A stretch of 33,474 bases of DNA from an uncultured Candidatus Saccharibacteria bacterium (GCA_964423385.1 CAYRER010000009.1:1-33474); one strand, 5' to 3'. Counted from the stretch's first letter, positions 166 to 20,156 are shown. Numbers and translations: made by a program. Notes: generated by a model not told the origin, from the sequence alone.

Positions 166-172
166 AGAAGAA

Positions 173-2988: not shown

Positions 2989-2997
2989 CCACCCGCT

Positions 2998-3657
2998 ATG
3001 CGACAGTACATCGAGACCCACATCGCCATTGCACTCACCCTGATTGTTCTCGCCGCTTCTGCCGGCATCGGCGCATTCGTCGCCGACCGGAATCAGAAAG
3101 AGGCAGAGCGTTCTGTCCGGAGTCTCCTCGAGCGCCAGGAGGCGCGGATGCTCGCGCTTGCCGAAACAACAGACCGCAACGATGCCGATGAGAGCGTTAC
3201 CCCCATCATCAAGGACTGTGAACGACGGAGTGAATTTGACTCGCTCCTCGGAAACCTCGGAAATCTCGGAAAGAAAGACCTCCTCACGACACAGAACCTC
3301 TTCGAGGCGTGCGGAAACTTCGAGCGCGAGCAAAAGGCGCTCACGGTAGGAAAGCTCGAGCGTGAGTTTGAGGTGTACCGGGATCTCCTCGTGCTCCTTA
3401 CGACTTTCACCGAAGACGACCTCGGCGGGTTCCACGAGACCCAGTGGGAGGACATCGTGGAGCACGAGAAGCTTCGGAGCGCGCTCCTCAACGACCTCAC
3501 CAGTATCCAGGGAGAGATTATCTCGGAGCTCATCCAGGGGTCGAGCGTCGGCGGGGAGGCGGTGAGCACACTCGTTGCTGAAGCGCAGGACATCGGTCAG
3601 CGTCTCATTGTGTACGACCGGACGATTGATGAGGCGCGCAGGTCAATCAGCGAGTGA
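2998..3657 (+). CDS. Hypothetical N-terminally membrane-anchored, predominantly helical protein
   Basis: 219-aa ORF, 9 nt after the previous stop. The N-terminal TM is IAIALTLIVLAASAGIGAFV. The rest is charged and helical, with no motif I recognise. G/C-ending codon bias matches the neighbours. Confidence 0.7.
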   Translation: MRQYIETHIAIALTLIVLAASAGIGAFVADRNQKEAERSVRSLLERQEARMLALAETTDRNDADESVTPIIKDCERRSEFDSLLGNLGNLGKKDLLTTQNLFEACGNFEREQKALTVGKLEREFEVYRDLLVLLTTFTEDDLGGFHETQWEDIVEHEKLRSALLNDLTSIQGEIISELIQGSSVGGEAVSTLVAEAQDIGQRLIVYDRTIDEARRSISE

Positions 3658-3658
3658 T

Positions 3659-4399
3659 ATGTTCAGAATCCTCTGGAAAATGCTCTTCCCGCGGTACGCG
3701 GGGAGCGAATTCACCACGGTACGTTACGCGTTCCCCGTGGTTGCGGTAACTGCGGTCCTCGCCGGACTCGCATCGGTTGTCTCGGAGAACAGCTCATACG
3801 TCATTGTTGAGACCGATGCTGAGACGGTCGCTCAGGACGAGCAGTTCATGGTTGAGGTGAAGGTTGCTGCGCACGTGCCGGTCAATGCCGTCGACCTCGC
3901 CATTGCGTACCCGGAGGACTCCGTTGAAATCGATGGCATCGATACCGGCACCTCAGTCATCACCATCTGGACGGAGGAGCCCTACGCGAGGGACGGCACT
4001 ATCCACCTCCGCGGCGGGACGTTCCGGAGGGGGTTCATCGGCGAGCACACCATCGCGCGCATCAAGGCACACGCGACAGAGCCCGGCGAGGCGCGCATCC
4101 TCATCAAGGACACTCAGCTCGTTGCCGGTGACGGCAAGGGGACGGAGGTTCCGACAACGAAGGATTCGTTTTCGAATGTCGTCCGCATCAAGGTGGAGGG
4201 CTCTGACGGAGTCATTTCCGGAAAGGCGGCAATCTCCATCATCACGGATACCGACGGCGACGGCGATGTCGACATCCGCGACATCAGCGCCTTCATGTCA
4301 GCGTGGTTTTCAAAAAATACTATCTTCGACTTCAACGGCGACGGGAGGATGACCTTCATTGATTTTTCAATACTTCTCGCTGATTCCTTCAGGCGGTAG
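3659..4399 (+). CDS. Anchored protein with one cohesin domain and one C-terminal type I dockerin
   Basis: I chose ATG at 3659, 1 nt after the previous TGA. The ORF-track start at 3575 would overlap the upstream gene. TM/signal is YAFPVVAVTAVLAGLASVV. The cohesin-like domain reads FMVEVKVAAHVPVNAVD...TIWTEEP...IHLRGG. The dockerin has two EF-hand-like loops, DTDGDGDVDIRD and DFNGDGRMTFID (nt ~4247..4390). Confidence 0.85.
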   Translation: MFRILWKMLFPRYAGSEFTTVRYAFPVVAVTAVLAGLASVVSENSSYVIVETDAETVAQDEQFMVEVKVAAHVPVNAVDLAIAYPEDSVEIDGIDTGTSVITIWTEEPYARDGTIHLRGGTFRRGFIGEHTIARIKAHATEPGEARILIKDTQLVAGDGKGTEVPTTKDSFSNVVRIKVEGSDGVISGKAAISIITDTDGDGDVDIRDISAFMSAWFSKNTIFDFNGDGRMTFIDFSILLADSFRR

Positions 4400-4453
4400 G
4401 TATTCACTGGGGACAGTGTGTTGATAAGCGGTGTGGATAGCGGGTGGAGCGGC

Positions 4454-4472
4454 TGTACAATACCTGTATACA
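4454..4472 (+). promoter_or_regulatory. Two adjacent extended -10-like boxes (TGTACAAT, TGTATACA) upstream of the acidic protein gene
   Basis: TGTACAAT at 4454..4461 and TGTATACA at 4465..4472. The second box lies inside the 12-bp perfect palindrome CCTGTATACAGG (4463..4474). They sit in the 113-nt gap before ATG 4513/4531. Confidence 0.35.
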
Positions 4473-4512
4473 GGCCCGCGACGGCGATTTTGGGCGAGCT
4501 TGTACGTAGAGT

Positions 4513-6327
4513 ATGAGGAGAAGATACGTAATGGGAAGAGCGCATCGCGATATGCGAGGTTTTGAGTATCTGGCGTACAGTGCGGTTTCGTCCGTGCTTC
4601 TCTTCGTGCTCGTCCTCATTCCGGTTGCTCCTGCGTTTGCTTCCGAGGAAGTAAGTGAAGGAACGATAGCGGAAGCATCGGCAGAACCGGAGAGTGGTGG
4701 AGCGAGTGCCTCGGTAGAAGAATCATCAGGGTCGGAACCGGAAGAAGACGCTCCCGTTGCGCCAACAGAAGAAACAGAAGCTCTGGACCCTGAGGGACTT
4801 CCGGATGGAGAAGGTGAGGAAGATATTTCTCCGGAGGGTGATGAGCCAGGGGAGGATGAAATAATTGAGGAGACGCTCCCTGCATCAGAGGAAGATGTCG
4901 ACATCGTTTCGGATGCTGAAGCAGAATCGGATGGAGAAGTAGTTTCTGAGACAGGAGTTTCTGAAGAAAAACTGGTAGACGCTTCGGAGCAACAGCCGGC
5001 GGATGTTTCGGAGGAATCGGTACCTACCGAAAATGTCGGAACAACTACCGATGCGGAGCTTCCCCTGTCGGATTCCGCAACAACCACCGGGGAAATCTCC
5101 GAAACGCTGACAGACGATGCTCCAGAACAGGCGGCACCTGAAGAAGCTGCTGAGGATGCTGTTCCGGAGCTCGAAGCGAGCACAACTCCCGAAAATCTTG
5201 TCGTCATCGAATCGGCAGAGACCGACGGAAATCCGTTCTCATTCTCAGAGAACGAGTGTGTCTCCGTTGGAGACGGCTCGTTCTACTGCTCATCCGCAGA
5301 GGACGCACCCGCTCCTCTCGGCACCGACCGCGTGTTCTCCGCAGTCGATGCGGACGGCGACAAGGAGATATACGTCGAGAAGGGGGGCGAGCTCACGGCT
5401 GTCACAGAGAACTTCCTCGATGATGACGCTCCGTACTACGATGAGCGCTCCGAGACCATCGTCTGGCACCGGCTCATCGACGGACGCTACCAGATTGTCT
5501 CGTACGACCTTGAGACGGCTGAGGAGACTGTTCTCACAAACGACCGGTACAACAACATGGAGCCGTCCCGGTACGGCGACGTCACCGTGTGGCAGGGGTG
5601 GGTGGGGAACGACTGGGAGATTATGCTCATGGAGGACGGGGAGATTACGATGCTCACTGACAACACCTGGAACGATGTCGTTCCGAATGTGAACGGCGCG
5701 TACGTTGTGTGGCAGTCCTTTGAGGAGAATGCGTGGCGCGTGAAGGTGTACGACACGATTACCGGGGAAGTGACGACCATCGACGACGCAGAAGGGGCGT
5801 CCGTCGAAAACCCGCGCTTCGTTCTCGTGTACGACAGCAAGCGGGAGAACGGCGATGTTGAAACGAAGGGCTTCGATTTGGAGCGCAAAGAGGCCGTTCC
5901 GCTCTCCGCGTCGCCGGCCCCGGTGCCGGAATCAATTCCCGACCCCGACCAGACGGGCGAAGACCGCGCGCTCATCCAGACGGTTACTCAGCTGAAGCCG
6001 AAGACCGAGGGTGAAGAGGATGTGCCGGACGATGTCCCCATGGCGGGCGGAGAGCCGAATCCGACAGGGAGTACGACGACACCCTCCGTTATTTCCGACG
6101 TCGTCATTCCTCCGTTTGATGCAGGGACAACCACCGAGGAGCTCCACGAAGAGGCACCTGCCGAGGAAACGGCGCCGGATACCGGACACATCGAGGATGT
6201 CGTCATTCCAGCCACTCCCGCCACAGGGGATGCAAGCGTGACGGACCATATCGAGGACGTCACCGTGACGCCGTACGTTGAGCCGATAGAACCGGTGGGA
6301 AAGATTGAGATAACGGAGCTCGACTAG
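4513..6327 (+). CDS. Secreted, highly acidic protein with a beta-propeller-like repeat core
   Basis: 604-aa ORF. ATG 4531 is an alternative start, preceded by GAGGAG at 4515..4520. Signal/TM is VSSVLLFVLVLIPVAPAFA. About 200 aa are E/D/S/T-rich low complexity. Repeated blades follow (IVWHRLIDGRYQIVSYDL, VTVWQGWVGNDWEIMLME, YVVWQSFEENAWRVKVYD). The C-terminal tail has HIEDVVIP / HIEDVTVTP / ISDVVIPP repeats. No C-terminal TM. Confidence 0.8.
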   Translation: MRRRYVMGRAHRDMRGFEYLAYSAVSSVLLFVLVLIPVAPAFASEEVSEGTIAEASAEPESGGASASVEESSGSEPEEDAPVAPTEETEALDPEGLPDGEGEEDISPEGDEPGEDEIIEETLPASEEDVDIVSDAEAESDGEVVSETGVSEEKLVDASEQQPADVSEESVPTENVGTTTDAELPLSDSATTTGEISETLTDDAPEQAAPEEAAEDAVPELEASTTPENLVVIESAETDGNPFSFSENECVSVGDGSFYCSSAEDAPAPLGTDRVFSAVDADGDKEIYVEKGGELTAVTENFLDDDAPYYDERSETIVWHRLIDGRYQIVSYDLETAEETVLTNDRYNNMEPSRYGDVTVWQGWVGNDWEIMLMEDGEITMLTDNTWNDVVPNVNGAYVVWQSFEENAWRVKVYDTITGEVTTIDDAEGASVENPRFVLVYDSKRENGDVETKGFDLERKEAVPLSASPAPVPESIPDPDQTGEDRALIQTVTQLKPKTEGEEDVPDDVPMAGGEPNPTGSTTTPSVISDVVIPPFDAGTTTEELHEEAPAEETAPDTGHIEDVVIPATPATGDASVTDHIEDVTVTPYVEPIEPVGKIEITELD

Positions 6328-6378
6328 TTTTCATATTCCTGGCCACAGCAGGGGGTCGCAGGAGCCGCACAAGTAAGG

Positions 6379-6384
6379 GATAAT
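6379..6384 (+). promoter_or_regulatory. -10-like hexamer GATAAT, candidate leaderless promoter for the giant gene
   Basis: GATAAT at 6379..6384, 7 nt upstream of ATG 6392, inside the 64-nt intergenic gap. Confidence 0.35.
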
Positions 6385-6391
6385 ACAGGGA

Positions 6392-9300
6392 ATGGGAGGT
6401 ATGCATTCCAGTCGTTTTCGTCGATGCAGAAAGATTACTGCGGGAGCCTTGGCTTTGCTTTCCGTATTCTCTTCGGTGTGGCCGGGCCTCATCCGGAATG
6501 CGCCTCAAGCAGAAGCGGCGCAGGTTGCGGTAGATACGTCAGTAAACGTCACGGCGACCTCACACCTCCTCGTCGGTGCACAGTCAGTGTTCGTGAACGA
6601 CCAGACGGGGTACAAGTTCTACCGCGACAGCACGGGCATCTGTGTGTACTCGAAGACGACCGACGGGGGCGCAAACTGGAACGCTGCGGTCACCGTTGAT
6701 GCACAGACTGACTGCATCTCGGTTCAGGTGTGGTATGACCGCTGGACTCCGGGCGGTACCGGAACGTACATCCACATCGTGACGATGGATACTTCAGTCG
6801 ACGACCTCTTCTACAATCGTCTCGACACGAACGGCGACACGCTCCTCATGGGTTCCGCGCCGGTCGACGCGAGCGTGAATAGTGGAAACAGCACGGCGAC
6901 GTTTGCCTCCGGCGCAAACGCGCCGTCCATTACGAAGGGAACTGATGGAACCATCTACCTCGCCGCAAATGATGCAACAGATTCATACGTCGTCGAGTGT
7001 TCCGCTTCCTGCAACCTCCAGGCGAGCTGGACGGAGACGGGAACCCGCCCGCAGGACCTCGCAAACGACTACAGCATCCTCGTTCCGCTCGCATCGGGAG
7101 ATATCATGCTCATCAACCGGGACATCTCTCTCGAGGATATCCGCTCAAAAATATGGAACAACTCCTCGTGGTCAGCATCGTGGGCGACCATCGATGCAAA
7201 CGCAACCGACAACACGACGTACGACGGCGGCCTTGCCGCGACGGTGAGCTCAACAACACCGGGGGTGGTGTATCTCGCATATACCGCCGACAACGCCACC
7301 CTCGGCACCGACGACGATGTCAGGGTTGCACGGTACCGCGGCGGCTCGTGGACCGCAGGAACAGACGTCATTGCGAATAACGCATCGCGCGCCATCACCG
7401 GCGTCGCCATCGGCATCGATGCGGCAAACGATGACGTGTACGTTGCCTATTCGGCGCGCACGACCGCAGGCACCGCAGGCACCGGGAATGTGTACTGGAA
7501 GTGGGCGACGACCTCTATGCAGAACTGGAGCGCGGAACAGGGACCGGTGAACACGTCGGGTGCAGACGACATTTATGGCATTGACCTCAATAATGTGAGT
7601 GATCAGCGTCTCCTCGTTTCGTGGTACGAAGCGACCGAGGATTACATCTATGCCGACACCATCGCCGACATTTTCCCAGGTATCCACGCATCCTCCTCGG
7701 GGACGCAGACAGCGACCGTCTTCGCGAGTACGTCGAACGTCTACCTTGGGGGAAAATTTCTCCTTTACAACACGTACAAGCCGATTGACGTCACGGGCAT
7801 CACGCTCACCGAGAGCGGTACCATCGACGGCTCTACAAACATTGCGAACGTGAAGCTCCTGTATGAGTCGGATACCGTCGCACCCTACGACTGTGCTACC
7901 AATACGTACGACGGCACCGAGAGCCAGTTCGGCTCGACAGACGGCAACGGCTTCTCGGGCGCCGACGGCACGTCGGCGTTTACCGGTACGAGCGTTACGG
8001 TGAGCACCTCGAGCGCGATGTGTGTGCACGTCATCTTCGACGTGCTCGACAATACCGAGAACGGTGCAACGATTGATATCTCGATTGCAAACCCGACAAC
8101 CGACATCACCGCGACCGGCCCGACAGGTCCGGCAACTGCACAGAATATCTCCGGCACAACGCAGGTCTTAAACGATGAGCCGACGCAGACCCACTACCAC
8201 TGGAGAAACGACAACGGGACGGAGGCGGGAGCGACGTCGCGCACCGGGGGGGTAGAAGACACTTCGCTCACTGCGCTCCAGCAGGGGACACCGGTGCGCC
8301 TGCGCCTCCAAGTATCGAATGAGGGCGGAAGCTCGACGCCCTCTCTGCAGTACCGGCTCGAGTATGCGCAGACATCGGGGACCTGCGATGCGGCAACCGG
8401 CTGGACCGACGTCGGTGCCACGGGCGGTGATTTCGATATGTATGACAGCTCGAATCTCACCGATGGAACCGATACGACCGACATCGCGCTCGGCTCCCTT
8501 GGTGCGGTCACCAACCCCGGCGGGAAGACCTTCCTCACACCCAACGGCGGTGTGAAAGATACATCATCACAAACCGCAAACATCCTCCTCTCTTCGACTC
8601 AGTTCACCGAGCTCGAGTATTCCATCGTCGCCTCAACGTCCGCGACCGAGGGGAACACGTACTGCTTCCGCGCCACCGACAAGGGGAACCCGCTCTTCCT
8701 CTACAGCCAGTGGGGACGCGCGACGATTGCCGCCGATGTCCTCGTTTCGGCGACCGGTACGCAGACAGCGACGACAAACCTCCCCGCGACCAACTTTTAC
8801 GTCGGCGGTGCCTACGTCATTACGGAGAACACAGGATCACGAAATGTGACAGGAATCACCATAAGTGAAGCCGGCACCGTAGATGGAGCGACCGACCTCG
8901 AGAACATCCGCCTCTACTACGAACTCGACACATCGGTGCCGTACAATTGCGCGAGCGAATCGTACGGCGGGAATGAGGCCCAGTACGGTGCAACATCGAC
9001 CGCGTTCAGCTCGGCAAACGGTACCTCAACGTTCACCGGCTCTGTCGCCATCTCAACGACGGCGACGATGTGCGTCTACGTGGTCCTCAACACGACTGCG
9101 ACAGCGCAGAACGGCGAGACGGTGAATATCGTCATCGAGTCGCCGTCCACCAACGTCGTCGTCTCTGGCGGGGGCACGGTGAGTCCGGCGACGACCCGCG
9201 ACATTACCGGAGAGACGACACTCCAGGGTGCAGTGCTCACCCAGACCCGTTACCACTTTAGAAACGACAATGGTTCTGAGGCGGCGGCAACGTCTGCTAC

Positions 9301-12300
9301 CGGGGGCTCCGAGAATACCGCGGTTACAAACATCGCGCTCGAGGCGCCGCTCCGTCTCCGCCTCCAGGTGTCGAACGAAGGCGCCGTTTCCTCCGCATCG
9401 CGCGCCTTCACCCTCGAGTACGGTGCGAAGGTGACGACGTGCGATGCGGTTGGAAGCTGGATTAACGTCGGCGCTCCGGGCGGTGCATTCGACCTCTTTG
9501 ACTCGACGAACCTCACCGAGGGGACCGACACGACCGACGTTGCTGTCTCTCTCGGCGGCGTGACAAATCCGGGCGGGAAGACCTTCCTTACACCGAACAG
9601 CGCGGTGAAGGACACCTCACCGTACGTCGCCTCGACGACGCTCACCTCGTCGCAGTTTCTTGAGACGGAATTTTCAATCCAGCCGACCCTCGATGCGGGC
9701 TACGACGTCACGTATTGCTTCCGGCTCTCGACGAGCGAGGTAGAACTCAACGCCTACTCAGTGTATCCGGAGCTCACCACGGCGCCGGAGCGCGACTTTG
9801 AGATTCAGCGGAATTTCTTCAATATGTCGGGAACGTCGCAGACCATCACTGCCGGTGTCGACTACATCGCTCCCTCTGCGTCGACGAGCGCGTTCATCCG
9901 CATCACGAACTCACATCACACCGGTGCCGGCAACAACCTGGGCTCGAACACTCAGAACGCCGACGACGTCACGGTATACATTGAGAATCCGTCGAACATC
10001 ATGAACTCAATCACGTTCCGCCGGCCGGCGGCGGCGACGGGTGTTACCCGCGTCTCCTGGGAAATCATCGAGTTCATCGGCGAGCCCGGCTCCGACAACG
10101 AGATGATTGTCCGGAGCCAGTCGGCGGTCACCTACGGCACGACAGCGACGGCGGCGACCGGCACCTCCGTCTCGGTCACCGACGATGCAGACGTCGTCGT
10201 CTTCATCACGGGACAACTGAACCCCCTCGCGAACGCGACCGGCTACCATACCGGCCAGTCGACGTCCGAGTGGGCGAGTGCGACCGATGAACCGGTCTTT
10301 ACCCGAGGAGCACAGCTCACGAATGCAGCCATCGTGAGCTACGCGGTCGTCGAGTTCACCGGACAGAACTGGGCGGTTCAGCGGAACGAGCACACATATA
10401 CGAATGCTGGCACGACCGAGACGGAGTCAATTACTGCAGTGAATAGTCTCTCGCGCGCCTTCCTCCACACGCAGAAGCGTATCGGTGCGACCCTGACGGG
10501 TGTCGACGAGTTTGGTCACGAGGTCTGGCTCTCGTCAATCGGGCAGATCTCCTACTTCCTCGAGTCCGGTGCGACGACACCATCGGGACAGACCTCGGTT
10601 GCCTGGATCATCGAGAATACGCAGACGACTTCCGGCGCGATGAACGTTCAGCGGAAGAACAACAGTACCGTGGGTGGTGTAGAGCCACTGACCCTCAGTG
10701 TTACCCTCGACACCGCGCTCGATGACCTCACGAATGCTTCCATTTTTGTGAACACGCGCGCGGCGGGCACGGGCACAAACTACCCCCGGCCGATTGCAGG
10801 AGCAACCATCGCCTCGACGACCGCCTTTGAGCTCTACCGGAGCGATACGCTCACCGCGCTCAACTACCGGGCAGAAATCGTTGAGTGGCCGACGGCGGGA
10901 CTTGCGCTCCGGCAGACGCACTACCGGTTCTACGTCGACAACAACGCCCTCACGCCAGCCGACGCGTGGCCGACGGAAGGCGGCGGGACTCTGGGCGAAG
11001 ACACAGTCCTTACCCCGGGCGATAACCCGCTCGGGGAAGGTGACCGCATCCGCATCCGCATGGCGGTGCAGGCGCAGAACGCAACCCTGCCTGCCGGTAC
11101 CCGAGCGTTCCGGCTCCAATACGGACAGATGACGACCTCGTGCAGTGCGATACCGGCAGCAAGCTGGAACACGCTCGGCAACAGCGCCTCCTCGACCATC
11201 TGGCGGGGGTTTAGTGCAACGGGTACTGTTGACGGCACTGAGATCACGACGCTCCTCCTCACCTTCTCGGATGTTGCGGGCACCCTCGAAGAAATCAATG
11301 ACACAGAGGCGAACCCTTCTGCCATCCAGGCAGGAGACGAAGTTGAGTACGACTGGTTCGTCGAACAGAACGGAGCTACAGCCGAGACGTACTACTGCTT
11401 CAGGATGGTGAGCGTGGATGGCACGCCGCTCGATTCGTACGCGTCGACGTACCCCCAGCTCCGCACTGCATCATTTGCCCCGCGAACGCAGAATTGGCGC
11501 TGGTACGACGATGAGGGAAGCGTGACGCCTGCGGTTGCGCTCGAAGGGGAGAATGTCTCTCCGCCGAACATTCCGAACGGGGGAGCGGTGAAGCTCCGCA
11601 TCACGGTGAAGGAAACGAAGAATATCGCCCGCGAGGATGCGCGGTTCAAGCTCCAGTATTCCGAGTCGGCAAGTTTTTCTCCGGTGTTCGATGTTGTTGC
11701 AACCTCGACGTGCACTGCAACCTCGACATGGTGCTACGCAAACGGCGGCGGCGTCGACAACGGGGTCATTCCGAGCAAGCTCCTCACCGATGCAGATGCG
11801 TGCTCCGGCGGAGTCGGGGACGGCTGCGGAACCCACAACGAATCTCCAGACGTCAAAACGGGCTTCCGTCACGAAGGTCTCGCCGCGACCGAGTACGAGT
11901 TCACCATTCAGTCGGCGGGTCCTCGGGTGAATCGCGTGTACTACTTCCGCCTCTATGACACCACCGATGGTATCCCGGTTTCTGCACATACAGGCGAGTC
12001 GTACCCGTCCCTGGTTACCGAGGGTGCAAGTCTCAACTTCACCATGGGAGGTCTCACCTCCGGACAGTCCATCGAGGGCGTCGTGCTCGATATCGACACG
12101 ACACCGACAACCATCCCGTTCGGCGTTCTCTCGCCGGGTGCGGCGCTCGAGGGCGCCCACCGGCTCTCGGTTGACACAAATGGTACCGAGGGATATCAGC
12201 TTTTCATGACGATGACGGGTGATCTCACGACGGCGGGCGGCGCGACCATAAGCCAGGTGACCGGCACGAACGCCGCGCCGCTCTCCTGGGATGCCGGGTG

Positions 12301-12550
12301 TGCCGCGGATGCTCCGAGCTGCTTCGGGTACCACACCGGCGATGACACGCTCGAGGGCGGCTCGACCCGGTTCTCGGCAATCGACACCTACGCACGCCTC
12401 TCGACGACGACGCTCGATGAGGTTTCCTACAGCTCCCAGCCGGCCGCGGGCGACACAACCGATATCGTATTCCGGATACTCATCCGCGATTTGCAAGACG
12501 CCGGAATCTATGAGACTAATATTGAGTACATCTCAGTCCCCATCTTCTAG
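6392..12550 (+). CDS. Giant (2052 aa) secreted multidomain surface protein: Asp-box propeller-like N-terminus, repeated beta-sandwich modules, WxL-like C-terminus
   Basis: Uninterrupted 6159-nt ORF. Signal peptide ends in AEA. A BNR/Asp-box motif SKTTDGGANW is at 6650..6679. Two module types are present, A x2 and B x4. B modules start QTHYHWRNDNG (8186), QTRYHFRNDNG (9242), QTHYRFYVDNN (10913) and QNWRWYDDEG (11489). The C-terminal ~173 aa (12029..12547) resembles a WxL domain (IPFGVLSPG...LSVDTNGTEGYQLFMT...YETNIEYISVPIF). Confidence 0.9.
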   Translation: MGGMHSSRFRRCRKITAGALALLSVFSSVWPGLIRNAPQAEAAQVAVDTSVNVTATSHLLVGAQSVFVNDQTGYKFYRDSTGICVYSKTTDGGANWNAAVTVDAQTDCISVQVWYDRWTPGGTGTYIHIVTMDTSVDDLFYNRLDTNGDTLLMGSAPVDASVNSGNSTATFASGANAPSITKGTDGTIYLAANDATDSYVVECSASCNLQASWTETGTRPQDLANDYSILVPLASGDIMLINRDISLEDIRSKIWNNSSWSASWATIDANATDNTTYDGGLAATVSSTTPGVVYLAYTADNATLGTDDDVRVARYRGGSWTAGTDVIANNASRAITGVAIGIDAANDDVYVAYSARTTAGTAGTGNVYWKWATTSMQNWSAEQGPVNTSGADDIYGIDLNNVSDQRLLVSWYEATEDYIYADTIADIFPGIHASSSGTQTATVFASTSNVYLGGKFLLYNTYKPIDVTGITLTESGTIDGSTNIANVKLLYESDTVAPYDCATNTYDGTESQFGSTDGNGFSGADGTSAFTGTSVTVSTSSAMCVHVIFDVLDNTENGATIDISIANPTTDITATGPTGPATAQNISGTTQVLNDEPTQTHYHWRNDNGTEAGATSRTGGVEDTSLTALQQGTPVRLRLQVSNEGGSSTPSLQYRLEYAQTSGTCDAATGWTDVGATGGDFDMYDSSNLTDGTDTTDIALGSLGAVTNPGGKTFLTPNGGVKDTSSQTANILLSSTQFTELEYSIVASTSATEGNTYCFRATDKGNPLFLYSQWGRATIAADVLVSATGTQTATTNLPATNFYVGGAYVITENTGSRNVTGITISEAGTVDGATDLENIRLYYELDTSVPYNCASESYGGNEAQYGATSTAFSSANGTSTFTGSVAISTTATMCVYVVLNTTATAQNGETVNIVIESPSTNVVVSGGGTVSPATTRDITGETTLQGAVLTQTRYHFRNDNGSEAAATSATGGSENTAVTNIALEAPLRLRLQVSNEGAVSSASRAFTLEYGAKVTTCDAVGSWINVGAPGGAFDLFDSTNLTEGTDTTDVAVSLGGVTNPGGKTFLTPNSAVKDTSPYVASTTLTSSQFLETEFSIQPTLDAGYDVTYCFRLSTSEVELNAYSVYPELTTAPERDFEIQRNFFNMSGTSQTITAGVDYIAPSASTSAFIRITNSHHTGAGNNLGSNTQNADDVTVYIENPSNIMNSITFRRPAAATGVTRVSWEIIEFIGEPGSDNEMIVRSQSAVTYGTTATAATGTSVSVTDDADVVVFITGQLNPLANATGYHTGQSTSEWASATDEPVFTRGAQLTNAAIVSYAVVEFTGQNWAVQRNEHTYTNAGTTETESITAVNSLSRAFLHTQKRIGATLTGVDEFGHEVWLSSIGQISYFLESGATTPSGQTSVAWIIENTQTTSGAMNVQRKNNSTVGGVEPLTLSVTLDTALDDLTNASIFVNTRAAGTGTNYPRPIAGATIASTTAFELYRSDTLTALNYRAEIVEWPTAGLALRQTHYRFYVDNNALTPADAWPTEGGGTLGEDTVLTPGDNPLGEGDRIRIRMAVQAQNATLPAGTRAFRLQYGQMTTSCSAIPAASWNTLGNSASSTIWRGFSATGTVDGTEITTLLLTFSDVAGTLEEINDTEANPSAIQAGDEVEYDWFVEQNGATAETYYCFRMVSVDGTPLDSYASTYPQLRTASFAPRTQNWRWYDDEGSVTPAVALEGENVSPPNIPNGGAVKLRITVKETKNIAREDARFKLQYSESASFSPVFDVVATSTCTATSTWCYANGGGVDNGVIPSKLLTDADACSGGVGDGCGTHNESPDVKTGFRHEGLAATEYEFTIQSAGPRVNRVYYFRLYDTTDGIPVSAHTGESYPSLVTEGASLNFTMGGLTSGQSIEGVVLDIDTTPTTIPFGVLSPGAALEGAHRLSVDTNGTEGYQLFMTMTGDLTTAGGATISQVTGTNAAPLSWDAGCAADAPSCFGYHTGDDTLEGGSTRFSAIDTYARLSTTTLDEVSYSSQPAAGDTTDIVFRILIRDLQDAGIYETNIEYISVPIF
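7700..9811 (+). repeat. Intragenic tandem duplication of a ~1056-nt (352-codon) A+B two-domain supermodule
   Basis: GTQTAT begins unit 1 at 7700 and unit 2 at 8756. The Q(T)(H/R)YH(W/F)RNDNG starts at 8186 and 9242 are exactly 1056 nt apart. The copies are diverged at protein level except for conserved islands such as VTNPGGKTFLTPN (8507..8545 and 9560..9598). Confidence 0.85.
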
Positions 12551-12551
12551 C

Positions 12552-13541
12552 ATGCGCATCTTTTTCTTCTCCATCGCACTCCTCACCGCGCTCGTCCCGC
12601 CCACCGCGCATGCGCAGATTGCGTACACGGTCTCTCCGCTCGTCATGGATCTTGAGGCGAAGGCACGCGATATCATCACAAAGACCATTATTCTCACCAA
12701 CACCGGCACCGTCCCGGTCACGGTCTATCCGACGGTGAACAACATCTCGCTCACGGAGGGCGGCACCATCGAGGAATTCGTCCCCCAGGTCATGAGTGAC
12801 CGCACCCGCTCGCTCGCCTCGTGGATTGAGGTGAGCCGGCGCGGCATCGACCTTATACCCGGCGAGCCGTACACCCTTCCGGTGACGTTCCGCATGAGCC
12901 CCGATCCGGTCCCCGGCACTTACCATGCACTCATCGGCTTCGGGTACGGACGGAACCAGGATGAGGCAAAGAAGCAGGTTGAGGGCGGACGGGCTCCGGG
13001 GAGCATCATCACGCTCACGGTTCCCGATGACAGGAACGAGTTCCTCAAGCTCTCCCGCTTCATTATCGACCGGTTTGTGACGAGCGCAGAAAATCAGGCG
13101 GCGGCGTACACATTCACGAATCCCGGCGATGAGACCGTCGTGCCGGAGGGTGAAATCATCCTCTATGACGCGACGGGGAGGGAAGTCGGCTCGGTTGCCG
13201 TCAATGAGGAGAAGGTTTCGATACCCCCGGGCGGTGAGCACACCTTCCGCGCGTCGGTCCCGGTAGAAGGTCTCTTCGGCAAATACAAGGCGTTCCTCTC
13301 GATTGAGTACGGGAGCGTGAACCGCGCCTCGCTCCAGGATACGAGCTTCTTCTACGCGCTTCCGCTTGAGCGGCTCATTCTCATCTTCGTTGTGCTCGCT
13401 CTCTTCGTTGCCCTCATTTCGTGGTACTTCCACCGGCGGTACCTCGACGAGGATGCTGACGACAGCGACCGCATCGTGCTCCACGTGCGCGAGAGTGCGA
13501 GCGAGGCGAAAGAGCACGACATTAACCTCAAACAGCAATGA
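12552..13541 (+). CDS. Secreted two-beta-sandwich protein with a C-terminal TM anchor, CscA-like (DUF916/DUF3324-like architecture)
   Basis: I chose ATG at 12552, 1 nt after the giant gene's TAG. The ORF-track start at 12291 overlaps that gene. Signal peptide is MRIFFFSIALLTALVPPTAHA. The N-domain reads YTVSPLVMDLEAKARDIITKTIILTNTGTVPVTVY...PGTYHALIGFGYG. A second sandwich reads YTFTNPGDETVVPEGEIILYD...KYKAFLSIEYG. TM is LILIFVVLALFVALISWYF, followed by an acidic tail. Confidence 0.8.
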   Translation: MRIFFFSIALLTALVPPTAHAQIAYTVSPLVMDLEAKARDIITKTIILTNTGTVPVTVYPTVNNISLTEGGTIEEFVPQVMSDRTRSLASWIEVSRRGIDLIPGEPYTLPVTFRMSPDPVPGTYHALIGFGYGRNQDEAKKQVEGGRAPGSIITLTVPDDRNEFLKLSRFIIDRFVTSAENQAAAYTFTNPGDETVVPEGEIILYDATGREVGSVAVNEEKVSIPPGGEHTFRASVPVEGLFGKYKAFLSIEYGSVNRASLQDTSFFYALPLERLILIFVVLALFVALISWYFHRRYLDEDADDSDRIVLHVRESASEAKEHDINLKQQ

Positions 13542-14821
13542 CGTTCATGCGGATACAGTACTGCGCGGCCGTCCTATTCTCGCTCCTCGTCTTCGCGAGT
13601 GCCGGGGAGGCACGCGCTCAGGGCTCACAGGTCATGAGCGTGACGCCGCCGCTCTTCCAGATATCTGCACTTCCCGGAGGCGTGTGGCAGAGCAGTGTGA
13701 AGGTGGTAAACGGCAACAGCTACCCCATGGCCGTGTACGCCGAGGTCGTAAACTTTACGGCACAGGGCGAGCGGGGACAGGGAAGGTTCGTTCCGGTCGC
13801 TGACGGCGGGGAGAATACGACGCTTGCCGAGTGGATCAGCGTCCCCGAGGGTCCGCACGTTGTACCTCCGGAGAAGACGAAGGACATACCAATCCTCATC
13901 GAGTTTCCGGAAGACGCACCTCCTGGAGGGCACTACGCCGCCGTTCTCATCACGACAAAGCCGCCCGAGAGCTTCCCGGAGGCACTCGCCGTCCGCACGT
14001 CGCAGGCGGTCACCGCGCTCGTCTTCGCCCGCATCGAGGGCGACGTGGAGGAGAGCGGTTCCATCCGCGAATTCCGCGTGGAGCATACCTTCGTCCAAAC
14101 TCCTGAAGCAGAATTTTCTCTCCGGTTTGAAAACAAGGGGAACGTTCACCTCCAGCCCCGGGGAACCATCACCATCACCAATATGTGGGGAACGGAGCGC
14201 GGGGCCATCCCCATCAACCACCAGTCGCACTTCGGGAACGTTCTCCCGGGAAGCATCCGCGATTTCCGCTTCACGTGGCAGAGCGACCTCTCATTCACCG
14301 ATGTCGGCCGCTACCGAGCCGAAGTGACTCTCGGGTACGGAGAGAACGGCGTGAAGAGCGTGAGCTCGGTGACGTACTTCTGGGTTGTACCGGTGAAGAT
14401 CACCCTCGTGACGCTCGGCACCATTCTCGCGTTCATCCTTGCCATTGTCTTTATGGTGAAGGCGTACGTACGGCGGATGCTCCTCCTCGCCGGTGTTTCT
14501 CCCGATGCCGCGGGAGAGGCGTCCCCGGAGCGCCCGGTGCGCATCCGTCCGAAAGTCTCGGCGCCGATTGAACGGGGTGTCCTCGACCTGCGCCGGCGCC
14601 TCGATGCTGCCGATGAGACTGTCGGCACCCTCGCGACGGTGTGGGAGTTTATGGTGCAGTACCGGACGTTCTTCATATCGGTCATTACGCTCATCGGCAT
14701 ATTCATCGCATCTGCGCTCTACATCGGCAGGGCAACCGACCCAGGCAATGACTACCGTATCATTATTGACGAGGGTGACATCGAGACGACCATTGAAGTT
14801 CCGGGCGAAGCCGGAGAGTAG
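13538..14821 (+). CDS. Paralogue of the preceding CscA-like protein, with two C-terminal TM helices
   Basis: 427-aa ORF whose ATG overlaps the previous stop (ATGA at 13538..13541). Signal peptide ends in ARA. Sequence is collinear with gene 12552..13541 (MSVTPPLFQISALPGGVWQSSVKVVNGNSYPMAVYA...PPGGHYAAVLITT; FENKGNVHLQPRGTITITN...RYRAEVTLGYG). The TM helices are ITLVTLGTILAFILAIVFMV and FFISVITLIGIFIASALYI. Confidence 0.8.
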   Translation: MTFMRIQYCAAVLFSLLVFASAGEARAQGSQVMSVTPPLFQISALPGGVWQSSVKVVNGNSYPMAVYAEVVNFTAQGERGQGRFVPVADGGENTTLAEWISVPEGPHVVPPEKTKDIPILIEFPEDAPPGGHYAAVLITTKPPESFPEALAVRTSQAVTALVFARIEGDVEESGSIREFRVEHTFVQTPEAEFSLRFENKGNVHLQPRGTITITNMWGTERGAIPINHQSHFGNVLPGSIRDFRFTWQSDLSFTDVGRYRAEVTLGYGENGVKSVSSVTYFWVVPVKITLVTLGTILAFILAIVFMVKAYVRRMLLLAGVSPDAAGEASPERPVRIRPKVSAPIERGVLDLRRRLDAADETVGTLATVWEFMVQYRTFFISVITLIGIFIASALYIGRATDPGNDYRIIIDEGDIETTIEVPGEAGE

Positions 14822-14830
14822 CGCTACCCG

Positions 14831-14839
14831 TGGTATACT
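14831..14839 (+). promoter_or_regulatory. Extended -10-like box TGGTATACT
   Basis: TGGTATACT at 14831..14839 in the 49-nt gap, 31 nt upstream of ATG 14871. Confidence 0.45.
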
Positions 14840-14870
14840 GAAGATATTACCACTCTAACGACACCACACT

Positions 14871-15356
14871 ATGGAACAGAAACATATTGTCGGCTCAGTT
14901 ATTCTCCTCGGACTCATCATACTCGGCATGTTTGTCTTCGCGTACCTCAAGCGGGCAGAGCTGCGGGAGACGACGCCGGCGCCGGAGGCACCCGCGTCCG
15001 CAGCCGACGCCTCGCCGTACGCGGGCATTACGCGCATTGACGCGAAGCACTTTTTTGACGGGACGACCCACACCATCGTCGGCGAGATGCCGATGCCGAC
15101 GCCGTGCGACCTTCTCAACTGGTCGACGCGCATCGCCGAGAGCATGCCGGAGACGGTAACCGTCGACTTCGATGTCATAAACAACGCAGAGGTCTGTGCA
15201 CAGGTGGTGACGCCTCAGCGGTTCAAGGTTTCGTTCGGTGCGAGCGAAGGTGCGGTCATCCGCGCAACTCTCGAGGGGCGGGAGATTATCGTCAACCTCA
15301 TTCCTCCCGGTCCCGGAGAATCACCCGATGATTTCGAGGTCTTCAGTAAGGGGTAG
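14871..15356 (+). CDS. Hypothetical N-terminally anchored small exported protein
   Basis: 161-aa ORF. TM is IVGSVILLGLIILGMFVFAYL, followed by a Pro/Ala linker and a ~100-aa domain with two Cys. No recognisable family. It ends 6 nt upstream of the redoxin-like gene. Confidence 0.7.
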   Translation: MEQKHIVGSVILLGLIILGMFVFAYLKRAELRETTPAPEAPASAADASPYAGITRIDAKHFFDGTTHTIVGEMPMPTPCDLLNWSTRIAESMPETVTVDFDVINNAEVCAQVVTPQRFKVSFGASEGAVIRATLEGREIIVNLIPPGPGESPDDFEVFSKG

Positions 15357-15362
15357 GGAAAC

Positions 15363-15911
15363 ATGAAACAGTATCTCCGTGACAACGCACGAGTCCTCGC
15401 TGTGCTCTGCGGCGTTCTCGCTGTTCTCGGCTTTCTCACGTACTCGTTCACCGCACCGGGCGGCATGTTTTCAGGTCTCCAGAATGACCTCAAGGCAATC
15501 GAACCAGAAGCAGACGCCGGGTACACAACGCTCGATGGCGCGCCGGTTGACCTCGCCGATTTCAAGGGGAAACCCATTATCGTGAATGCGTGGGCAACGT
15601 GGATGCCGTTCTCGAAAGACGAGCTTGCGCTCCTCACCGCACTCCACAGCGAGTACGGCGACCGCATGGTCATCATTGCGATGAACCGCATGGAGACCGC
15701 CCTCACCGTCCGCTCGTACCTCGCGCTCTACGGCATCGGGGAGTCCATTACCTTCCTCCTCGACCCGAAGGACTCGTTCTATCGCGCCGTCTCCGGGTAC
15801 GCGATGCCCGAAACTGTCTTTTACCGGAAGGACGGCACCCTACTGGCTCACACGCGCGGGGTGCTCACGGAAGCGGAATTGCGCGTGTACGCTGAGGAAC
15901 TCCTCCGGTGA
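15363..15911 (+). CDS. Membrane-anchored TlpA/ResA-like thioredoxin-fold protein lacking the CXXC active site
   Basis: 182-aa ORF with a purine-rich AAGGGGTAGGGAA upstream. TM is VLAVLCGVLAVLGFL. Redoxin-like layout: LADFKGKPIIVNAWATW, then MPFS where W-C-x-P-C is expected (15600..15614), then PETVFYRKDGTL. There is no Cys in the mature domain. Confidence 0.75.
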   Translation: MKQYLRDNARVLAVLCGVLAVLGFLTYSFTAPGGMFSGLQNDLKAIEPEADAGYTTLDGAPVDLADFKGKPIIVNAWATWMPFSKDELALLTALHSEYGDRMVIIAMNRMETALTVRSYLALYGIGESITFLLDPKDSFYRAVSGYAMPETVFYRKDGTLLAHTRGVLTEAELRVYAEELLR

Positions 15912-16015
15912 AACTTTCTCTCTCCCGGAGGGGTATGAGTCTGTAGGACGCCCGTTCTCCGAGACCTCTCGCAACCATCGGGAGTACTCGAGCCGCGCGG
16001 AGTCGGACGCGGTAA

Positions 16016-16186
16016 ATGTTGCAAGACAAGTCCGGTATGTTCAGGGCAGTCGGAGCGGTGCTCATTATCTGGTACCTCTCGTCGGTCTTTACGGAGAGCT
16101 TCTCGGCGCTCGACGGTGCAATGTCTGCATCGTTCCGTGCCGTAGAAGCAGCCGCCATCACCTCGCGGGAACACCTCGAGCGATGA
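16016..16186 (+). CDS. Unlisted small ORF (56 codons, or 49 from ATG 16037) encoding a single-TM peptide
   Basis: My translation is MLQDKSGMFRAVGAVLIIWYLSSVFTESFSALDGAMSASFRAVEAAAITSREHLER. It is too short to appear in the supplied ORF track. Third-position G/C bias resembles real genes. The TGA at 16184..16186 is followed 4 nt later by a strong intrinsic terminator. Confidence 0.5.
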   Translation: MLQDKSGMFRAVGAVLIIWYLSSVFTESFSALDGAMSASFRAVEAAAITSREHLER

Positions 16187-16190
16187 GCGG

Positions 16191-16224
16191 AAAGGCCGGA
16201 CACCCGTCCGGCCTTTCCTTTTTG
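16191..16224 (+). terminator. Rho-independent terminator
   Basis: Perfect 11-bp stem: AAAGGCCGGAC (16191..16201) pairs with GTCCGGCCTTT (16206..16216). The loop is ACCC, followed by CCTTTTTG. Confidence 0.85.
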
Positions 16225-16233
16225 TGTTCACGG

Positions 16234-16241
16234 TATACAAT
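16234..16241 (+). promoter_or_regulatory. -10-like box TATACAAT, candidate leaderless promoter for the transporter gene
   Basis: TATACAAT at 16234..16241, immediately after the terminator. 6 nt separate it from ATG 16248, with no SD. Confidence 0.4.
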
Positions 16242-16247
16242 GGTCGC

Positions 16248-17291: not shown

Positions 17292-17303
17292 TACCATCCG
17301 TCC

Positions 17304-18371: not shown

Positions 18372-18399
18372 CTATGATAGACCGGTAACTACACACATA

Positions 18400-18933: not shown

Positions 18934-18939
18934 CGTACG

Positions 18940-20133: not shown

Positions 20134-20156
20134 AATCGTATTGACCAAACCGAGGA

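What the first reader, a model, noticed from the sequence alone, without database searches (positions are those of the whole stretch)
6392..12550. 2052-aa giant surface protein built from an Asp-box propeller and four copies of an unrecognised W/Y-rich beta-sandwich module
Seen in the sequence:
- One uninterrupted 6.2-kb ORF with a signal peptide.
- An N-terminal ~390 aa with a BNR/Asp-box motif (SKTTDGGANW, 6650..6679) and repeated strand-like segments.
- Four modules, each opening with an aromatic motif (THYHWRNDNG, TRYHFRNDNG, THYRFYVDNN, QNWRWYDDEG). Each contains a (L/I)R(L/I)R..V.N.G strand and a ...Y(C/Y)FR... strand.
- A ~560-aa central region (about 9812..10912) with no motif I can name.

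Inference: this looks like a large adhesin or glycan-binding protein. The module family is not one I can assign from memory, so it may be uncharacterised.
Basis: partly seen in the sequence, partly recalled or inferred. Interest (0 to 1): 0.7.

Follow-up and report, generated by a model that had tools for sequence, protein, structure and literature searches.

The report
Giant Patescibacterial surface protein, WxL-like anchor
The 2052-residue protein is real, is conserved in many tiny "candidate phyla radiation" (Patescibacteria) bacteria, is built from protein modules no database recognises, and is probably held on the cell surface by a system related to the WxL surface-display clusters of lactic acid bacteria.

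Summary
The ORF 6392..12550 is real and is not an assembly chimera. At least 119 full-length relatives (50-68% identity) share its domain order N-A-B-A-B-Cen-B-B-Ct.

It missed two A modules (residues 425-596 and 783-948) and a 175-residue C-terminal domain, Ct. It also mis-sized the central domain, which is 369 aa, not 560.

No module matches Pfam, NCBIfam or PDB sequences. AlphaFold models are confident (pLDDT 96 and 89) and all-beta, but Foldseek returns only generic tandem beta-sandwich proteins.

The new information comes from context:
- The two genes immediately downstream are true homologues of the Firmicute WxL-interacting proteins (DUF916/DUF3324): hhalign 98.8%, E 1e-16.
- Ct always lies at the extreme C-terminus, in 1860 protein clusters whose listed members span 79-5226 aa.
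- Ct genes lie next to WxLIP-like genes in 5 of 6 independent loci.
- Ct aligns weakly (P about 0.03) but collinearly with WxL domains, with Tyr in place of both Trp.

Best reading: a surface-displayed giant protein of a Parcubacterial WxL-like cluster, anchored by Ct, with a BNR-like propeller at the distal tip. Ligand and function are inferred, not shown. I rate it a new variant of a known kind.

The parts
6392..12550 (+). Giant gene, 2052 aa, architecture SP-N-A-B-A-B-Cen-B-B-Ct
   Evidence: ORF list and translation. All 120 listed family members, this window's own protein included, keep the architecture; 17 of them carry a second N domain.
6392..6517 (+). Signal peptide, residues 1-42 (cleavage after AEA is inferred)
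   Evidence: Read from the sequence; no predictor was run. An alternative start 21 codons downstream was used by the collection's gene call (P0001).
6518..7663 (+). N domain (residues 43-424), BNR_2-like, presumed beta-propeller; the single canonical Asp-box is at 6650..6679
   Evidence: No Pfam hit in the window protein. PF13088 scores 23.6-33.6 bits in four relatives and maps onto N domains. The fold was not modelled.
7664..8179 (+). A1 module (residues 425-596), beta-sandwich
   Evidence: Self-BLAST. AF2 pLDDT 96. Foldseek returns only generic hits.
8180..8737 (+). B1 module (residues 597-782), beta-sandwich, opens THYHWRNDNG
8738..9235 (+). A2 module (residues 783-948)
   Evidence: 42-47% identical to A1. 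The A HMMs hit it at 1e-60 and 5e-83.
9236..9790 (+). B2 module (residues 949-1133), opens TRYHFRNDNG
9791..10897 (+). Central domain Cen (residues 1134-1502), all-beta. Three similar strand motifs (VSWEIIEF / VSYAVVEF / VAWIIEN) suggest an internal triplication.
   Evidence: AF2 pLDDT is mostly 86-97. No family match. The triplication is read from the sequence only.
10898..11479 (+). B3 module (residues 1503-1696), opens THYRFYVDNN
11480..12022 (+). B4 module (residues 1697-1877), opens QNWRWYDDEG; forms the widespread B-Ct unit with the next domain
12023..12547 (+). Ct domain (residues 1878-2052), a probable divergent WxL-type (Tyr-x-Leu) anchor. Motifs: TTPTTIPFG, VDTNGTEGYQL, LQDAGIYETNIEYISVPIF.
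   Evidence: Always C-terminal in 1860 clusters. hhalign against WxL gives P 0.025-0.028, best of 27 comparisons, with a collinear 146-column alignment. No PF13731 hit.
12552..13541 (+). WxLIP homologue 1 (329 aa): signal peptide, two Ig-like domains, C-terminal TM helix. Its ATG lies 1 nt after the giant gene's stop codon.
13538..14821 (+). WxLIP homologue 2 (427 aa), a paralogue of the previous gene
   Evidence: 47% identical to the Nomurabacteria protein that hits PF06030 at 29.8 bits against a cut-off of 27.3. hhalign against Firmicute WxLIP gives 98.8%, E 1.3e-16.
14871..15356 (+). Conserved small membrane-anchored protein (161 aa) of the cluster
   Evidence: Same position in L001, L125 and L126. 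No family match.
15363..15911 (+). Membrane-anchored redoxin/AhpC-TSA thiol-disulfide oxidoreductase, conserved at the end of the cluster
   Evidence: PF08534 at 9e-11. Synteny.
173..6327 (+). Upstream half of the conserved cluster: two cohesin-like membrane proteins (173..1243, 1240..2988), a 219-aa TM protein (2998..3657), a dockerin/EF-hand-like protein (about 3659..4399), and an acidic protein with TolB-like propeller repeats (4513..6327)
   Evidence: Pfam and NCBIfam. The same order is found in three other genomes.

Best explanation
The gene encodes the 'large' cargo protein of a cell-surface display cluster that is conserved in Parcubacteria-type Patescibacteria (relatives are named Kaiserbacteria, Nomurabacteria and Minisyncoccia).

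Proposed mechanism:
1. The protein is exported by Sec.
2. Its last 175 residues (Ct) hold it on the cell envelope. Ct is probably a divergent WxL-type domain in which both Trp are replaced by Tyr.
3. Ct does this by docking onto the two membrane-anchored WxLIP homologues encoded immediately downstream, and possibly onto peptidoglycan.
4. The rest of the protein projects outward as a string of beta-sandwich modules: B4-B3-Cen-B2-A2-B1-A1.
5. A BNR-like propeller sits at the distal N-terminal tip and is the likeliest ligand-binding (glycan-binding) head.

Shown:
- The architecture and its conservation.
- The all-beta folds of residues 425-782 and 1134-2052.
- The homology of the neighbouring genes to WxLIP.
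- The strictly C-terminal, modular use of Ct.
- The genomic coupling of Ct genes to WxLIP-like genes.

Inferred:
- Ct equals WxL.
- Ct physically binds WxLIP or the cell wall.
- The outward orientation of the protein.
- The ligand, and any role in attachment to a host cell.
For: Real and conserved:
- 331 hits in all. The 119 listed relatives are 50-68% identical over at least 89% of the query (98-100% for nearly all).
- The architecture is the same in all 120 listed members, this window's protein included.
- The surrounding gene order, about 13 genes in the three longer loci and continuing into flanking housekeeping genes (TGT, UvrB in L125 and L126), is the same in CP060229.1, CP060228.1 and CAZBMV010000003.1.

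Folds:
- AF2 gives pLDDT 96.0 for A1+B1 and 88.8 for residues 1134-2052, all-beta.

WxLIP neighbours:
- The next gene starts 1 nt after the stop codon.
- The two downstream proteins are paralogues (E 5e-16) with a signal peptide, an ectodomain and a C-terminal TM helix.
- The orthologue of the second one passes Pfam's PF06030 threshold (29.8 against 27.3 bits).
- A profile of 7 Patescibacterial proteins against a profile of 86 Firmicute WxLIP proteins gives 98.8% probability and E 1.3e-16 over 255 columns, spanning both domains.

Ct domain:
- 1860 clusters have E<=1e-3. In the 150 listed, the domain ends at or within about 30 residues of the last residue (within 6 for nearly all), in proteins of 79 to 5226 aa.
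- B directly precedes Ct in most of them.
- A small Ct protein (379-390 aa) sits in each orthologous cluster. This gives the small + large + WxLIP composition of Firmicute WxL clusters (PMC9772566, PMC10599100).
- WxLIP-like genes lie within a few genes of Ct genes in 5 of 6 independent loci.
- hhalign of Ct against small and large WxL profiles scores 20.9 and 19.6 (P 0.025 and 0.028). The 23 unrelated-module controls gave P at least 0.19, the two reversed WxL profiles P 0.49-0.66, and Ct against the WxLIP-like profile P 0.079.
- The relaxed alignment covers 146 columns and superposes three motifs: PxxIxFG, (R/N)G..G-[W/Y]-x-L, and QxxGxYxxx[LI]x[W/Y] near the C-terminus.
- Pfam's WxL model also misses or barely detects genuine large-WxL domains. 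Its silence on Ct is therefore weak evidence against.
Against: - The Ct-WxL similarity is statistically weak: P about 0.03 in a single comparison, and an hhalign probability of about 2%.
- None of 35 Ct sequences hits PF13731 even at E<=10.
- The name-giving Trp residues are absent.
- No structural comparison of Ct alone with a WxL model was possible.
- One of six loci (L127) has large and small Ct genes but no WxLIP-like gene within 10 kb.
- 50-68% identity across genera is unusually high for an adhesin. This fits a structural or housekeeping envelope role at least as well.
- The N domain's propeller fold and any ligand are untested.
- There are no expression or localisation data.
Confidence: 0.6

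Rival explanations
1. It is a structural envelope component, such as an S-layer-like lattice, spacer or sheath protein, rather than a ligand-binding adhesin. Under this reading the modules are scaffolding and the cluster builds a constitutive surface layer.
For: - Sequence and architecture are very highly conserved across genera.
- The chromosomal position is fixed next to housekeeping genes.
- The cluster includes cohesin-like and dockerin-like assembly parts and a redoxin.
- Foldseek finds only generic scaffolding-type beta-sandwich arrays.
Against: - Firmicute large WxL proteins, the closest analogues, carry adhesive passenger domains (PMC9772566).
- A terminal BNR-like propeller is more typical of a binding or catalytic head than of a lattice protein.
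- There is no evidence of self-assembly.
Confidence: 0.2
2. It is a surface-tethered glycoside hydrolase (sialidase-like). The N-terminal BNR propeller is catalytic and the beta-sandwich modules act as spacers or carbohydrate-binding modules. This would resemble the carbohydrate-utilisation role first proposed for the L. plantarum csc (WxL) clusters.
For: - One Asp-box is present.
- PF13088 hits at or near threshold occur in relatives.
- The csc clusters were proposed as carbohydrate-utilisation complexes (PMC1534035, title and abstract listed).
Against: - There is only one canonical Asp-box.
- The window protein has no Pfam or NCBIfam hit.
- There is no sequence hit to any solved sialidase, even with the family profile at E<=10.
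- No RIP-type motif is evident in the sequence.
- Catalytic residues were not tested.
Confidence: 0.1
3. Ct is not a WxL homologue. It is an independent Patescibacterial C-terminal sorting or assembly domain. It could be a secretion or attachment signal, or a subunit completed by strand donation, with the two-Ig-domain WxLIP-like proteins acting as chaperone or usher-like partners.
For: - The position is strictly C-terminal on cargo of any size, like other sorting domains.
- PF13731 gives no hit.
- Two distant members have weak hits to DUF4402 at the last strand (E 0.009 and 0.37).
- The WxLIP paper itself predicts that a WxLIP beta-hairpin inserts into WxL (PMC10599100).
Against: - Three motifs align collinearly with WxL, and WxL gives the best profile scores among all controls.
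- The partner genes are the same as in Firmicute WxL clusters.
- The DUF4402 hits are far below threshold.
Confidence: 0.12
4. The ORF is an assembly chimera created by mis-joining repeats.
For: Internal repeats of 45-60% identity exist.
Against: - The repeats are far too divergent to mis-assemble.
- The 119 listed relatives come from NCBI, JGI, ENA and Logan assemblies, include closed genomes of about 1 Mb, and all have the same domain order.
Confidence: 0.01

Closest known systems
Large WxL proteins (Lwp/CscC-type) of Firmicute WxL clusters, e.g. E. faecium LwpA-C, E. faecalis ElrA and the L. plantarum csc clusters
   Same: - A secreted multi-domain beta-rich protein with the anchor domain as its very last domain.
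- It is encoded beside WxLIP (DUF916-DUF3324-TM) genes and, in orthologous clusters, beside a small protein that carries the same C-terminal domain.
- Three sequence motifs of the anchor are collinear with WxL.
   Different: - Both Trp are replaced by Tyr, and the second Leu by Val or Ile.
- There is no PF13731 match.
- The spacing between the two motifs is about 110 residues, like small rather than large WxL domains.
- The protein is 2-4 times longer than typical large WxL proteins (500-1000 aa).
- The passenger modules (A, B, Cen) are unrecognised families.
- The host phylum is Patescibacteria rather than Bacilli.
- The cluster has two or three WxLIP genes plus cohesin-like and dockerin-like genes, and no LPxTG protein was seen.
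WxLIP (PF06030 WxLIP_PGBD + PF11797 WxLIP_HBD) proteins
   Same: The two downstream genes share the signal peptide, the two Ig-like domains and the C-terminal TM helix. They align with Firmicute WxLIP over both domains (98.8%, E 1.3e-16).
   Different: - The conserved Firmicute NQIDKxxxYFDLK motif is absent.
- The window's own proteins do not reach Pfam thresholds.
- The second paralogue has a longer cytoplasmic tail. In some relatives this tail carries a LytR_C domain.
BNR/Asp-box propellers (PF13088 BNR_2; sialidase-like and non-catalytic relatives)
   Same: One canonical Asp-box is present. Relatives give threshold-level PF13088 matches that fall on the N domain.
   Different: The window protein has no hit. 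Only one Asp-box is present. Neither catalytic residues nor the fold was verified.
Tandem Ig-like stalks of surface adhesins and receptors (PrgB Ig-like domains 8beg, integrin alpha leg domains, transglutaminase C-terminal barrels)
   Same: Foldseek's best matches for both models are chains of beta-sandwich domains.
   Different: TM-scores are at most 0.34 and identity is 5-13%. These matches show a generic fold class, not a family relationship.

Membership tests
WxL gene cluster (Hassan & Williamson definition, PMC10599100) | At least one full-length WxLIP gene (PGBD + HBD + TM helix) in the cluster | tested here: met
   Two paralogues lie at 12552..13541 and 13538..14821. hhalign against 86 Firmicute WxLIP proteins gives 98.8%, E 1.3e-16 over 255 columns. 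The orthologue passes the PF06030 cut-off.
WxL gene cluster (Hassan & Williamson definition, PMC10599100) | At least two WxL proteins, typically one small and one large, within a few genes of the WxLIP gene | tested here: inconclusive
   The orthologous clusters L001, L125 and L126 each have a small (379-390 aa) and a giant Ct-bearing protein. The small one would lie just left of window position 1. Whether Ct counts as WxL is unresolved.
WxL domain (PF13731) | The domain is the last domain of the protein | tested here: met
   Ct ends at or within about 30 residues of the C-terminus (within 6 for nearly all) in all 150 listed representatives.
WxL domain (PF13731) | Two Trp-x-Leu motifs in conserved contexts: motif 1 preceded by D-x-R-G-T-x-A-G, and motif 2 near the C-terminus | tested here: not met
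   The contexts are similar (VDTNGTEG-YQL; YETNIE-YIS-VP), but both Trp are Tyr. The first Tyr is nearly invariant and the second is mostly Tyr (sometimes Phe) in the 35 aligned sequences. The D-x-R pair is replaced by T-N.
WxL domain (PF13731) | Match to the Pfam model at or above its gathering score | tested here: not met
   No hit at E<=10 in the window protein, in its isolated Ct, or in 35 family members. Caveat: the model also misses a genuine large WxL domain (L015) and scores another at only 33.8 bits.
WxL domain (PF13731) | Profile-profile similarity to WxL alignments | tested here: inconclusive
   hhalign P is 0.025 and 0.028. These are the best scores among 27 comparisons, and the alignment is collinear over 146 columns. 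The reported probability is only about 2%.
WxL domain (PF13731) | The two motif strands are adjacent and antiparallel and form a buried platform; the domain binds peptidoglycan or WxLIP | not testable with these tools
Binding needs an experiment or a complex prediction.
Sialidase / BNR propeller (GH33, PF13088) | Several Asp-boxes (S-x-D-x-G-x-T-W), one per blade in 3-5 blades | tested here: not met
   I read only one canonical Asp-box in the translation, at residues 89-96 within SKTTDGGANW; no motif scan was run.
Sialidase / BNR propeller (GH33, PF13088) | Match to PF13088 above its gathering score | tested here: inconclusive
   The window protein has no hit. Relatives score 23.6, 31.0, 31.3 and 33.6 bits against a cut-off of 31.4.
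Sialidase / BNR propeller (GH33, PF13088) | Six-bladed propeller with an Arg triad, a Tyr/Glu nucleophile pair and an acid/base Asp | not tested
No solved sialidase matches by sequence, so no alignment was available.

The most novel reading that the evidence does not exclude
Ct together with the WxLIP-like proteins is a previously unrecognised, phylum-wide surface-display system of Patescibacteria. It would comprise at least 1860 protein clusters with cargo from under 200 to over 5000 residues, and would be evolutionarily linked to the Firmicute WxL system. The strictly conserved N-A-B-A-B-Cen-B-B-Ct giant would be the core host-contact or attachment organ of Kaiserbacteria/Nomurabacteria-type episymbionts. 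That would give the first concrete molecular candidate for how these uncultured cells bind their hosts.
Probability: 0.3. Interest if true: 0.8.

Novelty: new variant of a known kind. Interest (0 to 1): 0.62.

Why it matters
Parcubacteria-type Patescibacteria are abundant, mostly uncultured and thought to live attached to other cells. How they attach is not established for this group, as far as I know.

This locus offers testable parts:
- A giant, strongly conserved surface protein.
- A defined anchor domain that can be used as a search handle. One HMM retrieves about 1860 cargo families.
- Two membrane partners with clear homology to a partly characterised Firmicute system.

It would also extend the WxL/WxLIP surface system beyond the Firmicutes, where over 91% of known WxL sequences lie (PMC9772566). 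It shows that the name-giving Trp residues are replaceable. It also adds four sizeable domain families (A, B, Cen, Ct) that are absent from Pfam and NCBIfam.

No paper in the searched library links Patescibacteria with WxL or DUF916.

Tried and rejected
Searches that returned nothing useful:
- Pfam on the whole protein and on seven separate pieces at E<=10 gave nothing, apart from a chance ATP-grasp hit at E 0.2.
- NCBIfam gave nothing.
- phmmer and the full-family profile against PDB sequences gave nothing meaningful, with 0 hits at E<=10 for the profile.
- Foldseek of the two-domain and five-domain models against PDB and BFVD returned only generic multi-beta-sandwich chains with TM-scores of at most 0.34.
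- A Pfam scan of 35 Ct sequences and of 10 distant Ct proteins gave no WxL hit, only sub-threshold DUF4402 hits.
- A word-indexed search with the B-module profile returned only 29 short, unannotated Patescibacterial fragments.
- The same search with Ct returned 90 proteins, all 'hypothetical'. The few that are named are Kaiserbacteria, Pacebacteria or Patescibacteria.
- The supplement of PMC9772566 held no WxL sequences. WxL and WxLIP genes were therefore fished from genomes with a degenerate DNA pattern for NQIDKxxxYFD.
- hhalign in global mode was uninformative.

Ideas rejected:
- Assembly chimera: excluded by the conserved relatives.
- Mobile island: excluded by the fixed synteny with tgt and uvrB.
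- Phage origin: the window is housekeeping chromosome.

Full report
**1. The observation**

The window holds one uninterrupted ORF at 6392..12550 (+) of 2052 codons. The product is rich in Thr, Ala, Gly and Ser and poor in Lys (1.1%). It begins with a basic n-region, a hydrophobic core and AEA|AQ, which is a Sec-type signal read from the sequence.

- The Asp-box SKTTDGGANW is exactly at 6650..6679.
- Chunked self-BLAST shows that residues 425-782 and 777-1133 are a tandem duplication, 42-61% identical with E down to 5e-55.
- Each copy consists of an A module of about 170 aa followed by a B module of about 185 aa.
- B3 (1503-1696) and B4 (1697-1877) are distant B copies (E 5e-8 to 2e-5). Family HMMs confirm this.
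- An alignment of 23 B modules shows invariant R, C, W and F-R.

So the B-module observation is correct and far beyond chance. Its '~560 aa' central region is in fact 369 aa (1134-1502).

**2. It is real and conserved**

- A search of 5.8 billion proteins found 331 relatives. Apart from the window's own gene call, the 119 listed are 50-68% identical, and nearly all cover 98-100% of the query.
- They come from NCBI, JGI, ENA and Logan assemblies. Where named, they are Kaiserbacteria, Nomurabacteria, Minisyncoccia or 'Patescibacteria group'.
- Local HMMs give one architecture, N-A-B-A-B-Cen-B-B-Ct, in 103 of the 120 listed members. The other 17 have the same architecture plus a second N domain.
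- This excludes an assembly chimera.
- The window itself is ordinary chromosome, with tgt, uvrA, uvrB, uvrC, ddl and a histidine kinase. GC is about 0.60 and every real gene is on the + strand.

**3. No known family for any module**

- Pfam finds nothing in the whole protein or in seven separate pieces at E<=10.
- NCBIfam finds nothing.
- The PDB sequence library gives nothing, even with the full-family profile.
- AlphaFold2 models built with 55 homologues are confident. A1+B1 has pLDDT 96.0 and forms two beta-sandwiches. Residues 1134-2052 have pLDDT 88.8 and are all-beta.
- Foldseek against PDB and BFVD returns only generic chains of Ig-like domains: integrin alpha legs, PrgB Ig domains, transglutaminase barrels and a giant-virus DUF11 protein. 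TM-scores are at most 0.34 and identity is 5-13%.
- The fold class is therefore clear (beta-sandwich arrays), but no family assignment follows.
- The N domain was not modelled. In four relatives PF13088 (BNR_2) scores 23.6-33.6 bits around its 31.4-bit cut-off and maps onto N domains. N is therefore BNR-like, with a single canonical Asp-box. Catalytic residues are untested.

**4. Context**

- The next gene's ATG (12552) lies one base after the giant gene's stop codon.
- That gene (329 aa) and the following one (427 aa) are paralogues (E 5e-16). Each has a signal peptide, an ectodomain of about 270 aa and a C-terminal TM helix.
- In the closed Nomurabacteria genome CP060229.1 the same gene order is found. 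The orthologue of the second gene is 47% identical and passes Pfam's threshold for PF06030, WxLIP_PGBD (29.8 against 27.3 bits).
- I retrieved Firmicute WxL loci with a degenerate DNA pattern for the conserved NQIDKxxxYFD motif. From their ORFs I built alignments of 86 WxLIP, 94 small WxL and 11 large WxL sequences, selected by sequence motif; six representative ORFs were checked against Pfam.
- The Patescibacterial WxLIP-like profile aligns with the Firmicute WxLIP profile at 98.8% probability and E 1.3e-16 over 255 columns, spanning both Ig-like domains.
- The downstream genes are therefore genuine WxLIP homologues.

**5. The C-terminal domain**

- An exhaustive HMM search with a 35-sequence Ct profile found 1860 clusters at E<=1e-3 among 1.84 billion representatives (904 at E<=1e-10). 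In each of the 150 listed, the domain ends at or within about 30 residues of the last residue (within 6 for nearly all), in proteins of 79 to 5226 aa.
- A B module directly precedes Ct in most of them. A, Cen and N occur only in a minority of the listed proteins, mostly relatives or fragments of this giant.
- Other cargo includes LamG, pentaxin, DUF2341 and GH16 domains.
- The three orthologous clusters each also encode a small Ct protein of 379-390 aa upstream. In this window it would lie just beyond position 1.
- Across six independent locus types, WxLIP-like genes lie within a few genes of Ct genes in five. Large-plus-small Ct pairs recur.
- This is the composition of Firmicute WxL clusters: a small WxL, a large WxL with the domain last, and a WxLIP (PMC9772566, PMC10599100).

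Direct comparison with WxL gave the following:

- Ct against small and large WxL profiles gives hhalign scores of 20.9 and 19.6 (P 0.025 and 0.028).
- These are the two best scores among 27 comparisons. The controls were other modules of this protein (P at least 0.19), reversed WxL alignments (P 0.49-0.66) and the WxLIP-like profile (P 0.079).
- With a relaxed threshold the alignment spans 146 columns and superposes three motifs:
  - TTPxxIxFG with vPxxLxFG
  - TNxTEG-Y-Q-L with DxRGxxxx-W-x-L
  - LQxAGxYETxIxYIxVP with xQxxGxYxGxLxWxLxDxP
- Both Trp are Tyr. PF13731 is silent on Ct, but it also misses or barely detects genuine large WxL domains.
- I therefore treat Ct as a probable divergent WxL-type domain. 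Its membership is not established.

**6. Mechanism**

The best-supported model has four steps:

1. Sec export.
2. Retention at the envelope through Ct bound to the membrane-anchored WxLIP homologues, and possibly to peptidoglycan.
3. Outward projection of a rod of beta-sandwich modules.
4. A BNR-like propeller as the distal head.

The rest of the conserved cluster suggests a larger assembled surface complex. It includes two cohesin-like membrane proteins, a dockerin/EF-hand-like protein, a protein with TolB-like propeller repeats, a small membrane protein and a membrane-anchored redoxin. The giant protein has invariant cysteines, which fits the redoxin.

The ligand and the biological role are inference. 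Possible roles are host attachment, glycan harvesting or an envelope scaffold. The unusually high conservation argues for a core rather than a variable function.

**7. Novelty**

No paper in the searched library links Patescibacteria or the candidate phyla radiation with WxL or DUF916. The WxL literature describes the system as essentially Firmicute (PMC9772566).

The finding is best classed as a new variant of a known kind. It is a WxL-like display cluster in a different phylum, with a Tyr-for-Trp anchor and four unrecognised domain families.

**8. Limits**

- No model of N and no complex prediction could be made.
- The Ct-WxL link rests on weak profile statistics plus strong context.

Noticed in passing
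window 173..4399: Two cohesin-like membrane proteins lie at 173..1243 and 1240..2988; the second also has a Big_13 domain and a coiled-coil tail. A protein with a dockerin/EF-hand-like C-terminus lies at about 3659..4399 in the same conserved cluster. This could be an intra-cluster cohesin-dockerin pairing in a non-cellulolytic organism.
   Followed up: partly
window 4513..6327: A 604-aa protein has an N-terminal TM helix and a long acidic low-complexity stretch rich in Glu, Asp, Ser and Pro. It also has TolB/PD40-like beta-propeller repeats (TIGR04275 at 5e-7). It is conserved directly upstream of the giant gene in all orthologous loci.
   Followed up: partly
window 15363..15911: A membrane-anchored redoxin/AhpC-TSA protein always closes the cluster. 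The giant protein carries many invariant cysteines, so this may be a dedicated extracytoplasmic disulfide enzyme.
   Followed up: no
window 23160..25982: A second large secreted protein (940 aa) has Big_13 and bacterial TSP3 repeats. It sits between uvrB and a histidine kinase gene and is unrelated to the A, B or Ct modules.
   Followed up: no
window 1..33474: Every plausible gene in the 33-kb window is on the + strand. Synteny with Kaiserbacteria and Nomurabacteria genomes extends from the surface cluster through AI-2E transporter, PGA_cap, tgt and HD to uvrB.
   Followed up: partly
P0002-P0011 and 7 others (relatives, 2441-2477 aa): 17 of the 120 listed family members carry a tandem duplication of the N (BNR-like) domain. 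The distal head can therefore be doubled while the rest of the protein is unchanged.
   Followed up: yes
L127:10001-19792; L004:8001-31681; L129:1-12376: The Ct domain anchors quite different cargo. One example is a 3039-aa protein with LamG, pentaxin, DUF2341 and GH16 domains; another is a 5226-aa protein. Ct genes usually occur with one or two small Ct proteins and WxLIP-like genes nearby. L127 has no WxLIP-like gene within 10 kb.
   Followed up: partly
L015:176-2833 (Enterococcus dispar): This large WxL protein has both WxL motifs, but Pfam PF13731 does not detect it at E<=0.001. Another (L019:552-3644) scores only 33.8 bits. The Pfam model is tuned to small WxL domains.
   Followed up: yes
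window 9791..10897: The central domain shows three similar strand motifs (VSWEIIEF, VSYAVVEF, VAWIIEN). Each is followed about 10-15 residues later by an (I/A/N)V(R/Q)R motif (MIVR, AVQR, NVQR). The predicted strand pattern also recurs. Together these suggest an ancient internal triplication.
   Followed up: no
L001:1-876, L125:1-563, L126:47-1003: The first gene of the orthologous clusters lies upstream of the window's left edge. It is a third, more divergent WxLIP-like protein (E 2e-10 to 2e-5).
   Followed up: partly
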